Of a stretch of 17,696 nucleotides of DNA, positions 1 to 2,019 are shown in pieces. Positions within the stretch are counted from its first letter, which is position 1. Each line of letters opens with the position of its first letter. The notes beneath the pieces were generated by a model. It worked only from the letters and a program-made list of their open reading frames with translations. It did no database searches and was not told the origin of the DNA. Made by a program: the position numbers and the translations under genes. This DNA is from Myxococcales bacterium (lineage in GTDB: Bacteria; Myxococcota_A; Polyangia; Palsa-1104; JAEUJZ01): positions 1 to 17,696 of the forward strand of contig JAEUJZ010000183.1 in the NCBI GenBank assembly GCA_016794505.1, given 5' to 3'.

Positions 1-2019
1 CATCACCTGGATGTAATTCTCGCAGTTAAACCACTTGTCTTTGTGGTCGCGTAGGAACGTCACGCTGTAGCTGGTGCGGATGTGGATGCGGACGAAGTCG
101 CTGGTCTCGACTTCAATGATGTCCGAGACGCGATTGCCGACCGTGCGCAGGAAACAAGTCTGCAGCGGGTGTTCATCGCTCTTCGGTGTCCCCGTCGACA
201 AGCGCAGGGGAACCAGCGTCTCTTCGTATTCAAGCAGCGTGACGCAGGGACCTTCGATCACGCGCTGCGCCGCTGCCGAGGTCGCGAGCACGGCTGTGTT
301 GTGCGGCACGATGATCGACACGGCCCACGGCGTCATCATTGCTTTGTTGGTCAGCTTGTGCGGCTCAGATGGCGCGATCCACAGGTTCCATTCCGCGATC
401 GAAAGTGTGCGCGTGATGTGGATCTCTTTGCGCGGGTCGACCAGATACGACTGCTTGCCGCGGATCAGGCGCACCTCGCCCGTCGTCAGATCGCGGACAT
501 AGATGCCTGACTTCTGATCGATGCCGATGGCCTCGATGAACACGCTGCTGTGATCGTTGCCGACCACGGCTTCACCGGTCTGCGGCGCCAGGACTTCGAT
601 CTCGTTGAACGGAAAGAAGAAGCCTGAGACGCCCGACAGCAGGATCTCATCGCCGGGGTAATACATCTCTTTGTCGAGCTGCACGCCGCGCGGCATCTTG
701 GCCGCCATCTCCTCGCGCGAGATCGAGCTGATGACGCGCAGCCACAGCGCACGCTGCGGCAGAAGCTCATACGCATCGTACGTGCGATTGCGCGAGCCCT
801 TGGTCATGAACGTGTCGTACGGACCAGGGAACACGCGCGCCGGGCCGACCTTGATCTCGCGTTTTCCGTCGGGATCGATCAGCACGCAGAACTCTTTTTC
901 ACCGAGTACCGCGGCGTGGCGAACCAGGCGAGCCTGCCGCGCTTCGCGCTCGATGGCTTTGCGAACGCTGTCGCTGGCCAGCAAGTCGTCGATGTTCGCG
1001 GGTGGGGCTTGGGTCAAGTTGACGGCGGAGGCGGGCAGCGCGACTTCACCGCGAGCTGGCGCCGAGGCCATGGGCGCAGGCGGAGCACTGGGCAGCGGTG
1101 GCGGTGGTGGCATGGGCTTGCCCGGTGCCTGCACGCGCTGTCGTGTGCGCGCCGCCTGATCGACAAACGCAGCCTGCGACTGATACTGCGCGACCGCGCG
1201 CTTGGCCTTGCTGCGCTCGACCTCGCTCTCTTCGGCATCGTCAAACGCTGGCGCGCTTGGCTCAGCAGGTGGCAGCGGCGGGGGACCTTTGGGTGGTGCA
1301 GCGCTTGTTTGCAGCTGCTGCATCTGCGTCACCAGGCGCTGTGCCGTCACCGCGGACAGCGTTGCGCCGGACTCGTCGACCGAGGTGTCGGGCACGATGT
1401 CGACGCCAGAGGGCGGAATGTAAAACTGCGTGTCGATGCCGCGCACGACGATCAGCTGACCGCGCATGAGCGGCTTACTGGCGGCGGCGTCCGGCAGCGG
1501 CTGCGGCCGACCGTCCAAGGCTTCTGCGGTGGCTCGCGTGATCGCCGCCGAGCGCACCGTGACATCGTGATACGGCGCCGTGGGATCCAGCGGGCCATAG
1601 ACCTTGACCACCAAGTACTGGCTGGCCGAAAGCTCGTGCGCGTCGCGCACTTCGGCGCGCTGACCAGGGCGCAGATAGAACGAACAGGGTCCAGGGATCA
1701 TCGCCCGCGTGCCGTTCTTGAGAGGACGCGTCTCGTTTCTGCCAACGCGGAAGCGCCCGTTGGGGCCGCCATCGTTTTCCAAAAGTGGGTTGTACAAGAC
1801 GGCGTACTGGTGGTCGCCGACTTCGATCAGTCGCTGCGGCCGGCTGCTCGTGTCTTCGCGAAAGCCTCCGTCGCCGTCGTCAATGACCACACGATCCGCG
1901 GCGGTCGGCGAGACCATCGTCGGACCGACGTGCAGCGTGACCTCGCCTTTGTCATCGTCTTGTACCCAGAGAAACTGCCTCTCGGTAACTGGAATCTTCC
2001 GGCTCCCCCGCTCATTCAT
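1..2019 (-). CDS. Major vault protein (MVP) homolog, N-terminal ~673 aa; the C-terminus (rest of shoulder plus cap-helix) lies beyond the window start
   Basis: The minus-strand frame is open from ATG at 2019..2017 down to base 1. I checked the translation codon by codon at both ends and at two interior points. It is missing from the supplied ORF track only because it has no stop inside the window. GGAGG sits 9 nt upstream of the ATG. The N-terminus (KIPVTERQFLWVQDDDKGEVTLHVGPTMVSPTAADRVV, LIEVGDHQYAVLYNP...FYLRPGQ) matches the start of eukaryotic MVP as I recall it ([45 protein letters not shown]...FPLYPGE). Later segments also match: EFCVLIDPDGKREIKVG against NYCVILDPVGPDGKNQLG; IYVRDLTTGEVRLIRG against IYVQDVKTGKVRAVIG; VPHNTAVLA...GPCVTLLEYEETLVPLRLSTGTPK...DIIEVETSDFVRIHIRTSYSV against RVPHNAAVQV...[24 protein letters not shown]...[21 protein letters not shown] (shoulder domain). 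High GC3 codon usage is consistent with real coding. Confidence 0.85.
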   Translation of the reverse strand, partial: MNERGSRKIPVTERQFLWVQDDDKGEVTLHVGPTMVSPTAADRVVIDDGDGGFREDTSSRPQRLIEVGDHQYAVLYNPLLENDGGPNGRFRVGRNETRPLKNGTRAMIPGPCSFYLRPGQRAEVRDAHELSASQYLVVKVYGPLDPTAPYHDVTVRSAAITRATAEALDGRPQPLPDAAASKPLMRGQLIVVRGIDTQFYIPPSGVDIVPDTSVDESGATLSAVTAQRLVTQMQQLQTSAAPPKGPPPLPPAEPSAPAFDDAEESEVERSKAKRAVAQYQSQAAFVDQAARTRQRVQAPGKPMPPPPPLPSAPPAPMASAPARGEVALPASAVNLTQAPPANIDDLLASDSVRKAIEREARQARLVRHAAVLGEKEFCVLIDPDGKREIKVGPARVFPGPYDTFMTKGSRNRTYDAYELLPQRALWLRVISSISREEMAAKMPRGVQLDKEMYYPGDEILLSGVSGFFFPFNEIEVLAPQTGEAVVGNDHSSVFIEAIGIDQKSGIYVRDLTTGEVRLIRGKQSYLVDPRKEIHITRTLSIAEWNLWIAPSEPHKLTNKAMMTPWAVSIIVPHNTAVLATSAAAQRVIEGPCVTLLEYEETLVPLRLSTGTPKSDEHPLQTCFLRTVGNRVSDIIEVETSDFVRIHIRTSYSVTFLRDHKDKWFNCENYIQVM
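910..1377 (-). other. Pro/Ala-rich low-complexity insertion inside the MVP repeat region
   Basis: In the translation, residues ~215-370 read ...QQLQTSAAPPKGPPPLPPAEPSAPAFDDAEESEVERSKAKRAVAQYQSQAAFVDQAARTRQRVQAPGKPMPPPPPLPSAPPAPMASAPARGEVALPASAVNLTQAPP.... This stretch sits between recognisable MVP repeats and has no counterpart in the ~55-aa repeat ladder of eukaryotic MVP. Confidence 0.6.

What the first reader, a model, noticed from the sequence alone, without database searches (positions are those of the whole stretch)
910..1377. Large Pro/Ala-rich disordered insertion inside the vault-protein repeat region
Between recognisable MVP repeats sit ~150 residues of low-complexity sequence (PPKGPPPLPPAEPSAPAF...KPMPPPPPLPSAPPAPMASAP...). 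They include an acidic patch (DDAEESEVERS) and a basic patch (KAKRAV...RTRQRVQ). Eukaryotic MVP has no such insert in its barrel wall. If the protein assembles like a vault, this loop would project from the shell surface or into the lumen. It could serve as a cargo- or envelope-docking element specific to the bacterial version.
Basis: seen in the sequence. Interest (0 to 1): 0.55.

Follow-up and report, generated by a model that had tools for sequence, protein, structure and literature searches.

The report
Disordered docking arm in bacterial vault protein
A myxobacterial relative of the eukaryotic vault-shell protein carries a real, clade-specific 150-residue insertion between two of its wall repeats: a floppy Pro/Ala-rich tether that displays a strictly conserved arginine-rich peptide, probably a built-in docking arm, whose partner is unknown.

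Summary
The gene lies on the minus strand (ATG at 2019) and runs off the window start. It encodes a major vault protein (MVP) homologue by Pfam, PDB sequence and fold matches.

Residues 216-365 (nt 925-1374) are a genuine insertion in the linker between the third and fourth beta-repeats. That junction is 25 residues or fewer (mostly 0-2) in 92 of 111 related cluster representatives, and short in human MVP.

It is not a degenerate repeat or an assembly error. No profile similarity to the repeats was found. Independent assemblies carry it in frame.

It is modular:
- two boundary helices;
- two hypervariable Pro/Ala-rich linkers (AlphaFold pLDDT 32-51, dN/dS 0.2-0.6);
- a constrained core (dN/dS 0.05-0.12) with an acidic patch followed by a bipartite basic motif, PRR...[VI]DQ[SA]ARxRxR[KV]. 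Q, R, R and R are invariant in the 26- and 42-sequence alignments; the strict form occurs in 155 of 168 family members.

Best reading: a flexible tether presenting a short docking peptide on a vault-like shell, possibly to a polyanion such as RNA or to MVP itself. The partner, and whether the arm faces the lumen or the outside, could not be tested.

The insert is specific to a subclade, not to all bacterial MVPs. I rate it a new variant of a known kind, of moderate interest.

The parts
1..2019 (-). MVP-homologue gene, complete at the 5' end and cut by the window edge at the 3' end (673 of about 973 codons)
   Evidence: Translation. Pfam Vault_3, MVP_shoulder and Vault_4. PDB MVP hits at E=2e-15. 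Full-length relative P0001 is 95% identical and 973 aa. GGAGG lies upstream of the ATG.
1846..2019 (-). Repeat R1 (residues 1-58)
   Evidence: Own HMM mapping. AF2 beta-strands with pLDDT 84-91. By eye it resembles human R1 (IPVTERQFLWVQDDDKGEVTLHVGP against [25 protein letters not shown]). The human sequence was verified.
1375..1842 (-). Double-repeat unit A (residues 60-215), which ends immediately before the insertion
   Evidence: Unit HMM. hhalign places it on human R6-R7-type repeats. AF2 pLDDT is mostly 79-91.
925..1374 (-). The insertion as a whole (residues 216-365)
   Evidence: It is the gap between the end of unitA and the start of unitB. The gap is 150 aa here and 0-25 aa in 92 of 111 related cluster representatives. 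Coordinates were verified by translation.
1303..1359 (-). Boundary helix alpha-1 (residues 221-239, LSAVTAQRLVTQMQQLQTS)
   Evidence: AF2 helix with pLDDT 62-73. Consensus SAxAARQLLAQL across the family. dN/dS 0.08-0.33.
1246..1302 (-). Pro/Ala-rich linker 1 (residues 240-258)
   Evidence: pLDDT below 50. Hypervariable and indel-prone. dN/dS 0.21-0.45.
1216..1242 (-). Acidic patch (residues 260-268, DDAEESEVE)
   Evidence: Median net charge is -5 in the -50..-12 window upstream of the motif in 155 family members. It is part of the constrained core, dN/dS 0.05-0.12.
1198..1209 (-). First basic element (residues 271-274, KAKR; family consensus APRR)
   Evidence: Alignment A4: this Arg is conserved in at least 90% of sequences.
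1132..1167 (-). Core arginine motif (residues 285-296, FVDQAARTRQRV; family pattern [VI]-[DE]-Q-[SA]-A-R-x-R-x-R-[KV])
   Evidence: Q288, R291 and R293 are invariant in the 42-sequence alignment A1. Q, R, R and R are invariant in the 26-sequence alignment A4. The strict pattern occurs in 155 of 168 family members and a looser Q..R.R pattern in 56 of 57 genome loci.
994..1128 (-). Pro/Ala-rich linker 2 (residues 298-342)
   Evidence: pLDDT 32-39. Gap fraction up to 0.66 in the 116-sequence alignment. dN/dS 0.25-0.62.
931..993 (-). Boundary helix alpha-2 (residues 343-363, IDDLLASDSVRKAIEREARQA)
   Evidence: AF2 helices 343-347 and 350-363, pLDDT 62-76. Consensus identity 76-87%. dN/dS 0.00-0.07.
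529..924 (-). Double-repeat unit B (residues 366-497), equivalent to human/rat R6-R7
   Evidence: phmmer and hmmsearch align query 370-441 to rat/human 274-349. Unit HMM. AF2 pLDDT 89-96.
1..528 (-). R8, R9 and the start of the shoulder (SPFH-like) domain (residues 498-673)
   Evidence: Query 496-655 aligns to rat 378-547. Pfam Vault_4, Vault_3 and MVP_shoulder.

Best explanation
SHOWN. The gene encodes a soluble bacterial homologue of the major vault protein. Its layout is R1, double repeat A, [insertion], double repeat B (human R6-R7), R8, R9, shoulder. In full-length orthologues a long cap helix follows.

Residues 216-365 are a lineage-specific insertion in what is normally a linker of about 0-2 residues between two stacked beta-repeats. 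The insertion is modular:
- two moderately to strongly conserved boundary helices (221-239 and 343-363);
- two hypervariable Pro/Ala-rich segments of variable length, predicted disordered;
- between them a core under purifying selection, with an acidic patch followed by a bipartite basic motif, (A/S)PRR - 7 to 15 residues - phi-[VI]-[DE]-Q-[SA]-A-R-x-R-x-R-[KV].

INFERRED. The two boundary helices pair into a short stalk leaving the wall. The Pro/Ala segments act as extended flexible tethers. The conserved core is a short linear docking motif displayed once per subunit, so as a ring of copies if the protein forms a vault-like cage.

The exact spacing and the invariant non-basic residues (Q, A) point to a specific binding site rather than bulk charge. 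No protein-coding neighbour is conserved. The partner is therefore most likely either a ubiquitous polyanion or an acidic surface of MVP itself. Among polyanions I favour RNA or another nucleic acid, in which case the upstream acidic patch could act as an intramolecular competitor.

My split:
- tethered docking arm of some kind, about 0.6;
- within that, nucleic acid or polyanion about 0.25-0.3, self or neighbour MVP docking about 0.2, another protein about 0.15, inner-leaflet membrane about 0.1.
For: - MVP identity.
- Cap helix in orthologue P0001: helix 743-910, aligned to rat MVP up to residue 794.
- Insertion at a junction that is otherwise direct: unit-HMM mapping. In human MVP the unitB-equivalent starts at 275, straight after the preceding repeat. 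[quoted passage not shown]
- Disorder: the second AF2 model has mean pLDDT 77.7, flanks 84-96 and residues 240-340 at 32-51. The middle is 47% Pro+Ala.
- Modularity and constraint: flanks 80-100% consensus identity against 13-58% inside the insert, with a local maximum at 281-300. Region length ranges 75-152 aa in 116 homologues.
- Motif: strict form in 155 of 168 family members; upstream region median net charge -5, motif region +5. Invariant Q, R, R, R.
- dN/dS against five close relatives: core 0.05-0.12, alpha-2 0.00-0.07, folded flanks 0.01-0.07, Pro/Ala linkers 0.21-0.62.
- The motif survives in clusters below 50% identity that have lower Pro/Ala content (P0121, P0127, P0153, P0123). The order acidic, then basic, then Pro-rich is kept in relatives with 250-420-aa inserts (P0122, P0124, P0125, L065).
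- No conserved neighbour in four insert-bearing Polyangia-type contexts, nor in two contexts of the helical-insert groups.
- Soluble: the highest Kyte-Doolittle 19-residue window in P0001 is 1.34, below the usual threshold of 1.6.
Against: - No binding partner was identified, and nothing here tests binding.
- AF2 gives no confident docked conformation for the motif (pLDDT below 50).
- One natural family member (L064) keeps only a poly-Asp/Glu stub and lacks the Arg motif, so the motif is dispensable in at least one lineage.
- Pairing of the two boundary helices and the inward or outward direction could not be checked, because no coordinates are available to me.
- Whether any bacterial MVP forms a cage is unknown.
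- The dN/dS segments are short, and the five comparisons share ancestry.
- The resemblance of D-Q-S-A-R-x-R-x-R to arginine-rich RNA-binding peptides (lambda N, HIV Rev) comes from memory. The only database echo is a non-significant match to an Arg stretch of ribosomal protein uL22 (E=0.23).
Confidence: 0.55

Rival explanations
1. Self-docking strap. The basic motif binds an acidic surface of the same or the neighbouring MVP subunit, and the acidic patch binds the neighbour's basic motif. The arms then form an electrostatic belt that stabilises or gates assembly of the shell, rather than binding cargo.
For: - No conserved partner gene.
- The flanking repeats are net acidic; 21-residue windows at 206-221 score -5 to -2.
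- The acidic-then-basic order is conserved even in very different inserts.
- In human vaults, lateral ionic contacts cluster at R5-R6 (PMC13347060). That is the region adjoining the equivalent junction.
Against: - The AF2 monomer shows no confident intrachain docking.
- Relatives without the insert have the same flanking repeats and evidently need no strap.
- No multimer prediction was possible.
Confidence: 0.2
2. Passive spacer or hinge. The insert is a tolerated low-complexity expansion whose only role, if any, is steric or mechanical: an entropic bristle, or a flexible hinge that uncouples the R1-R3 skirt from the rest of the wall. There is no specific binding.
For: - The Pro/Ala linkers are hypervariable, indel-prone and close to relaxed evolution.
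- Insert length ranges from about 50 to about 420 aa among relatives.
- L064 has lost the Arg motif.
Against: - The core and alpha-2 are as constrained as the folded domains (dN/dS 0.05-0.12 and 0.00-0.07).
- The motif has invariant Q/R/R/R and fixed spacing, in strict form in 155 of 168 members and in looser form in 56 of 57 genome loci.
- The insert is retained in all 168 family members with both flanks detected.
Confidence: 0.12
3. Membrane tether. The basic motif binds anionic phospholipids of the cytoplasmic membrane and anchors the particle. This would parallel the membrane-associated SPFH relatives of the shoulder domain and the recently reported membrane association of eukaryotic vaults.
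For: - Net +5 basic cluster with adjacent hydrophobic residues (F/Y/V-[VI]).
- The shoulder domain is SPFH-like.
- A paper titled 'The vault associates with membranes in situ' is listed (PMC13100048; seen as title and abstract only).
Against: - Invariant Q and A and the strict spacing are not needed for lipid binding.
- The adjacent conserved acidic patch would oppose it.
- There is no amphipathic-helix signal that discriminates helix from strand periodicity.
- No transmembrane segment or lipidation signal.
Confidence: 0.08
4. Degenerate MVP repeat(s), or an assembly or frameshift artefact in a GC-rich low-complexity stretch.
For: - The insert length (about 120-150 aa) is close to two 55-60-aa repeats.
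- A forced glocal hmmalign at first seemed to place two extra repeats here in relatives of about 880 aa.
Against: - The hmmalign impression was an artefact. Domain-wise HMM mapping shows unitA abutting unitB directly in those relatives.
- No Pfam hit in the insert at E<=10.
- hhalign of the insert against the repeat units finds nothing, while the control is positive.
- Independent assemblies share the insert without indels, with differences that preserve the frame.
- 57 genome loci carry both flanks in one uninterrupted ORF.
- No tandem DNA repeat.
Confidence: 0.02

Closest known systems
Eukaryotic major vault protein (rat/human vault shell; PDB 4V60, 4HL8, 7PKZ, 9BW5)
   Same: - Same fold and domain order: beta-repeats, SPFH-like shoulder, and a long cap helix in the full-length orthologue.
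- These are the only significant sequence and fold hits.
- R1 and the R6-R9/shoulder region are directly alignable.
   Different: - About 7 repeats rather than 9: R1, two double units, R8 and R9.
- A 150-aa helix-IDR-helix insertion where eukaryotic repeats are joined by a short linker and packed tightly (PMC2752026).
- No TEP1, PARP4 or vault-RNA genes nearby.
- Assembly into a cage is untested.
Bacterial and phage MVP homologues noted in preprints (Sokolskyi 2019, bioRxiv 10.1101/872010; phage MVPs, bioRxiv 10.1101/2023.11.10.566534)
   Same: The same family. Myxococcales are explicitly listed as carriers.
   Different: - The first paper does not mention an insert, proline-rich region, disorder or linker.
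- In the second, 'insert' occurs once, in a methods sentence about trimming alignment insertions, and 'disorder' once, for the cap-ring region.
- Most relatives sampled here lack the insert, including jumbo-phage-like contigs.
FtsZ C-terminal linker plus conserved C-terminal peptide (own knowledge, not tested here)
   Same: The same design logic. A disordered linker of variable length and low complexity evolves fast, and a short peptide under strong constraint docks partners.
   Different: - Here the tether is internal, a loop anchored at both ends by helices, not a tail.
- The motif is basic rather than amphipathic.
- The partner is unknown.
Arginine-rich motif peptides and Arg-rich capsid arms (lambda N, HIV Rev/Tat, nodavirus or HBV core tails; own knowledge)
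   Same: A short Arg cluster with a few fixed polar residues, sitting in a disordered segment of a cage-forming protein. D-Q-S-A-R-x-R-x-R superficially resembles D-A-Q-T-R-R-R-E-R-R of lambda N.
   Different: - Only about 5-6 basic residues.
- An adjacent acidic patch.
- Internal rather than terminal.
- No evidence for RNA binding; the database echo is not significant.
Ala/Pro-rich swinging-arm linkers of 2-oxo-acid dehydrogenase E2 chains (own knowledge)
   Same: The Ala/Pro-rich composition, which gives extended flexible tethers between structured elements of a large symmetric assembly.
   Different: E2 linkers carry folded lipoyl domains. Here the tethered element is a peptide of about 40 residues with, at most, a low-confidence helix.

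Membership tests
Major vault protein (MVP) family | MVP beta-repeat domains | tested here: met
   Pfam Vault_3 scores 34.5 bits (cut-off 28.8). Vault_4 scores 22.6 bits (cut-off 22.9, just below). AF2 predicts beta-repeats with pLDDT 84-96. Foldseek finds only MVP chains at E from 4e-22 to 1e-12.
Major vault protein (MVP) family | Shoulder (SPFH-like) domain after the repeats | tested here: met
   PF11978 MVP_shoulder scores 27.3 bits (cut-off 25) on the truncated window protein. It is precomputed in nearly all homologues.
Major vault protein (MVP) family | Long cap-helix domain that drives lateral oligomerisation | tested here: inconclusive
   This part of the gene lies outside the window. 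In the 95%-identical orthologue P0001, AF2 gives one helix over 743-910. The family profile aligns to rat MVP through residue 794.
Major vault protein (MVP) family | Assembly into a closed 39-fold half-shell / 78-mer cage | not testable with these tools
   No multimer prediction and no experiment. No published structure of a bacterial MVP was found.
Vault ribonucleoprotein (MVP + TEP1 + PARP4 + vault RNA) | Accessory components encoded or detectable | tested here: not met
   Window neighbours are housekeeping genes. There is no Rfam family or tRNA in the window. No conserved neighbour appears across divergent loci. Only local context was examined, not whole genomes.
Ordinary or degenerate MVP repeat (for the insert itself) | Detectable sequence or profile similarity to MVP repeats, and a beta-strand prediction | tested here: not met
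   No Pfam hit at E<=10. hhalign against unitA, unitB, R1 and R8 gives P of 0.2-0.68 over a single column, while the control gives 1e-4 over 108 columns. AF2 predicts coil or helix, not strands.
Disordered tether carrying a short linear motif (functional class) | Low-complexity linker of variable length evolving fast, plus a short motif under purifying selection | tested here: met
Disordered tether carrying a short linear motif (functional class) | An identified binding partner for the motif | not testable with these tools
   A profile search with the 44-position core found nothing at E<=10. It did not recover even the MVPs themselves, so the search had no power.
TonB/TolA-type Pro-rich envelope-spanning proteins | N-terminal membrane anchor or signal peptide with a periplasmic Pro-rich rod | tested here: not met
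   The highest 19-residue Kyte-Doolittle hydropathy in P0001 is 1.34, below 1.6. The N-terminus is the R1 repeat itself.

The most novel reading that the evidence does not exclude
Myxobacterial MVP shells carry their own cargo-binding arm. Each subunit would extend a Pro/Ala-tethered arginine-rich peptide into the lumen, giving a ring of RNA- or polyanion-binding sites. That ring would do the job that TEP1 and vault RNA do in eukaryotic vaults. The adjacent acidic patch would act as a switch. The bacterial particle would then be a self-contained nucleic-acid (or polyphosphate) packaging compartment. It would also give a tractable bacterial model for the long-unknown function of vaults, because cultured carriers exist (Polyangium fumosum DSM 14668, Minicystis rosea DSM 24000).
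Probability: 0.18. Interest if true: 0.75.

Novelty: new variant of a known kind. Interest (0 to 1): 0.5.

Why it matters
Vaults are among the largest and most conserved eukaryotic particles, and their function is still unknown. Bacterial MVP homologues have only been listed in the literature, never dissected.

This analysis gives three things:
- A clade of MVPs from myxobacteria, including cultured strains, has a selected, modular docking arm built into the shell wall.
- The conserved core is short (about 40 residues including the acidic patch, ending in a 12-residue motif), which makes it a concrete handle for pull-downs, mutagenesis and cryo-EM.
- Natural comparison sets exist: relatives without the insert (some apparently on jumbo-phage contigs), relatives with a helical-looking insert, relatives with giant inserts, and one with a poly-acidic stub.

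If the arm binds RNA or a cargo, it would be the first functional clue for a prokaryotic vault-like particle. It would also mark a ready-made site for engineering cargo loading.

If it is only a spacer, the result is a modest note on how much an inter-repeat junction of the vault wall can tolerate.

Tried and rejected
1. Plus-strand translation does not contain the peptides. The gene is on the minus strand.
2. The first AlphaFold run, using 42 close homologues, gave mean pLDDT 54 and an uninterpretable N-terminal half. It was repeated with 72 sequences including relatives at 36-43% identity, giving mean pLDDT 77.7.
3. A glocal hmmalign of 150 cluster representatives suggested that relatives of about 880 aa carry two extra repeats where the insert sits. 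Domain-wise HMM mapping showed that unitA abuts unitB directly in them, so I rejected this.
4. HMMER and hhalign of the N-terminal third against human MVP did not settle repeat orthology. HMMER sees only R6 and R8-R9. hhalign is ambiguous because the repeats resemble each other, and its best hit places residues 4-212 on human 169-377. One-to-one numbering of repeats before the insert is therefore not claimed.
5. None of the top 150 cluster representatives is a eukaryotic MVP. I used the human sequence recalled from memory only after verifying it as 100% identical to PDB 11dr_A over residues 1-549.
6. A profile search with the 44-position core returned no hit at E<=10, not even the MVPs. The test had no power and says nothing about the motif occurring elsewhere.
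7. A PDB search with the core gave only non-significant hits (uL22 at E=0.23).
8. Synteny: no conserved neighbour around divergent orthologues. The 604-aa gene without Pfam hits downstream in L001 is not conserved elsewhere.
9. Rfam, tRNA and tandem-repeat scans were all empty.
10. Orientation (lumen or outside) and pairing of the boundary helices could not be determined, because the tools return no model coordinates. The papers read give no statement on which face the inter-repeat linkers occupy.
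Full report
**1. What is there**

None of the three plus-strand frames contains the quoted peptides. The reverse-complement frame beginning at ATG 2019 gives one uninterrupted reading of 673 codons that runs off the start of the window. A GGAGG lies 8-12 nt upstream.

Residues 240-342 are 47% Pro+Ala, against 14% in the folded flanks (Fisher p = 2e-12). There is no DNA tandem repeat.

**2. The protein is a vault-protein homologue**

- Pfam finds Vault_3 and MVP_shoulder above their cut-offs, and Vault_4 just below.
- The only significant PDB sequence hits are rat, human and rabbit MVP. 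Query 370-441 aligns to rat 274-348, and query 496-655 to rat 378-547.
- A family profile extends the match through the shoulder and cap helix to rat residue 794.
- A second AlphaFold model has mean pLDDT 77.7 and pTM 0.63. By Foldseek it matches only MVP structures (E from 4e-22 to 1e-12), and everything else has E>0.1.
- The full-length orthologue P0001 (95% identical, 973 aa) continues into a single helix over 743-910.
- No window of P0001 reaches the hydropathy expected for a transmembrane helix.

The family is large. There are 390 hits in the first search, nearly all 910-1013 aa, and 73 loci in GTDB species genomes. These include cultured Polyangium species, Minicystis rosea and Byssovorax, and several MAGs labelled Planctomycetota. 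The nearest genome record (99%) is an uncultured Myxococcales MAG (L006).

**3. It is a genuine insertion at an inter-repeat junction**

I built HMMs for the segments flanking the insert:
- unitA, residues 60-215, a double repeat;
- unitB, residues 366-497, a double repeat equivalent to human R6-R7;
- R1;
- R8.

I mapped them on 50%-identity cluster representatives from an exhaustive profile search, which found 1,210 clusters at E<=1e-3.

Of 111 representatives with both units, 92 have 25 residues or fewer between them, mostly 0-2. The other 19 have inserts of 51-422 residues. In human MVP the unitB equivalent starts at 275, directly after the preceding repeat. [quoted passage not shown]

An earlier impression that some relatives have two extra repeats at this site came from forced glocal alignment and was rejected.

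The insert shows no similarity to MVP repeats. Pfam finds nothing at E<=10. hhalign finds nothing, while the unitA-versus-unitB control gives P=1e-4 over 108 columns.

Assembly error is excluded. L006 (99%), L001 and L002 (95%), and L060 (92%) come from other assemblies. They carry the same insert, in frame, with no indels relative to the window. In addition, 57 genome loci hold both flanks in one uninterrupted ORF.

**4. Anatomy of the insert**

In a 116-sequence alignment the flanks are 80-100% identical to the consensus. Residues 229-345 fall to 13-58%, with up to 66% gaps and a local conservation peak at 281-300. The region ranges from 75 to 152 residues.

AlphaFold predicts:
- helix 221-239, pLDDT 62-73;
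- coil 240-265, mostly pLDDT below 50;
- a low-confidence helix 266-282;
- coil 283-342, pLDDT 32-39;
- helices 343-347 and 350-363, pLDDT 62-76;
- the next beta-repeat from residue 366, pLDDT around 90.

Anchoring on the conserved element shows a bipartite basic motif: (A/S)PRR, then 7-15 residues, then phi-[VI]-[DE]-Q-[SA]-A-R-x-R-x-R-[KV].
- Q, R, R and R are invariant in the 26- and 42-sequence alignments.
- The strict form is present in 155 of 168 family members, and the rest are near variants.
- A looser Q..R.R form is present in 56 of 57 genome loci.
- It is preceded by an acidic patch (median net charge -5), while the motif region has a median of +5.

Codon comparison with five close relatives:

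| Segment | dN/dS |
|---|---|
| Folded flanks | 0.01-0.07 |
| Core, residues 259-297 | 0.05-0.12 |
| Helix alpha-2 | 0.00-0.07 |
| Helix alpha-1 | 0.08-0.33 |
| Pro/Ala linkers | 0.21-0.62 |

Against L001 the raw counts are as follows. The N-terminal 228 codons have 67 synonymous and 1 non-synonymous differences. The core has 13 and 3. The two linkers together have 22 and 26.

**5. Evolutionary setting**

- The Arg motif is older than the Pro/Ala richness. Clusters below 50% identity (P0121, P0123, P0127, P0153) keep [DE]Q[SAG][AT]RxR[HQ] with only 16-25% Pro+Ala.
- Relatives with 250-420-aa inserts (P0122, P0124, P0125, L065) keep the order boundary helix, acidic patch, Lys/Arg patch, Pro-rich stretch, boundary helix HRRALEREAR.
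- Other groups (P0128, P0129, P0131, P0143, P0155) have an insert of about 100-150 aa at the same site, low in Pro/Ala and probably helical. P0129 and P0155 share the first helix, and the group shares the final ...VR.AVV re-entry.
- One Myxococcales MAG (L064) has only a 53-residue stub, largely poly-Asp/Glu, without the Arg motif.
- Three insert-less relatives that I located sit on 86-424-kb contigs that look like jumbo-phage genomes.
- The insert-bearing ones I located are in ordinary bacterial contexts.

**6. Context**

The window's other genes are housekeeping:
- an RlmL-like methyltransferase, transcribed divergently from the MVP gene;
- a PBP1C-type penicillin-binding protein;
- a GT2 glycosyltransferase;
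- two MlaE permeases;
- pyridoxamine-phosphate oxidase;
- a metallophosphoesterase;
- UppP;
- an M20 peptidase;
- a chemoreceptor.

The order is conserved in L001. Downstream genes differ among divergent orthologues: a 604-aa gene with no Pfam hit, an OPT transporter, a 332-aa gene with no Pfam hit, and a VWA protein. No partner gene can therefore be nominated. No Rfam family or tRNA is present.

**7. How it most likely works**

Shown: an insertion made of two helices and a disordered tether, with a selected acidic-then-basic core.

Inferred: the helices form a stalk. The Pro/Ala segments are extended flexible tethers. The core is a docking peptide displayed once per subunit.

The fixed spacing and the invariant Q and A argue for a defined binding site rather than generic charge. 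The lack of a conserved neighbour points to a ubiquitous ligand, such as nucleic acid or another polyanion, or to MVP itself. The motif's likeness to arginine-rich RNA-binding peptides is a recollection, not a test. The only database echo (uL22, E=0.23) is not significant.

The rivals are a self-docking strap, a passive spacer or hinge, and a membrane tether. They are listed with their evidence in the Rival explanations section. A degenerate repeat and an artefact are effectively excluded.

Direction (lumen or outside), helix pairing, cage formation and the partner remain untested.

**8. Comparison with the known**

Bacterial MVP homologues in Myxococcales, Cytophagales and Oscillatoriales, and phage MVPs, have been reported in two preprints. 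The first does not mention an insertion, proline-rich region, disorder or linker. The second uses 'insert' only for alignment trimming and 'disorder' only for the cap-ring region. Other searches found no structural or functional work on bacterial MVPs.

The protein is a member of the MVP family by fold and domains. The insert is a new variant feature within that family. As a design, it works like disordered-tether-plus-motif arrangements such as the FtsZ C-terminal linker and peptide.

**9. Verdict**

The feature is real and was correctly spotted. It is more structured and more interesting than 'low complexity', but its function is unproven. Interest is 0.5. Novelty: new variant of a known kind.

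Noticed in passing
L079 7001-9538; L080 7001-9625 (also P0277, no DNA held): The insert-less MVP relatives P0279, P0283 and P0277 are about 40% identical to the window protein. They sit on 86-424-kb contigs made of co-directional, tightly packed small genes, mostly without Pfam hits. Those contigs carry thymidylate kinase, UDG, Thg1, an AAA ATPase, an SLT lysozyme, IS605 OrfB and Hcp, so they look like jumbo-phage genomes. One (P0283) is labelled 'Candidatus Nanoarchaeia archaeon' at NCBI.
   Followed up: partly
L064 3001-4707: A Myxococcales MAG orthologue (860 aa) has only a 53-residue stub at the insertion site. The stub is largely poly-Asp/Glu (LDDDDDDGDADDDDDDEDEHYLDDE...). It has no Pro/Ala linkers and no Arg motif, making it a natural near-deletion variant.
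   Followed up: partly
L055 and L065 (both from MAG 'Myxococcota bacterium isolate BF4_93'): One MAG appears to carry two MVP paralogues. One is standard. The other has an uninterrupted ORF of 1039 aa within the held locus and a much enlarged insert (acidic patch, KKRFKKERRQELRSRRER, long Pro-rich stretch).
   Followed up: no
L037, L044, L050, L052, L057, L073: Six loci with the Polyangia-type MVP, including the insert, come from MAGs labelled Planctomycetota. Another (L033/P0090) comes from a MAG labelled Thermoanaerobaculia. This could be mis-binning or horizontal transfer; I did not examine it.
   Followed up: no
window 1474-1512 (minus strand; residues 170-182), with helix 151-158 at window 1546-1569: A second, small hypervariable loop (GRPQPLPDAAASK) has consensus identity 0.24 and pLDDT about 58. 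It lies inside repeat unit A, next to an extra helix that human R6-R7 lacks in the hhalign alignment.
   Followed up: no
L001 13232-15046: A 604-aa gene with no Pfam hit lies 310 bp downstream of the MVP gene on the same strand in the closest relatives (L001, L002). It would lie just beyond the window's edge. It is not conserved next to divergent orthologues.
   Followed up: partly
window 15912-17390 (minus strand): A 492-aa ORF with no Pfam hit lies next to a YfiR/HmsC-like (DUF4154) gene (15317-16048) and a CHASE8-HAMP chemoreceptor (13771-15306). As listed, the two ORFs overlap by about 137 nt, probably because the listed start is too far upstream.
   Followed up: no
window 7882-9479 (minus strand): Two adjacent MlaE-family permease genes in tandem (264 aa and about 267 aa in L001). 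No MlaF or MlaD was seen in the window.
   Followed up: no
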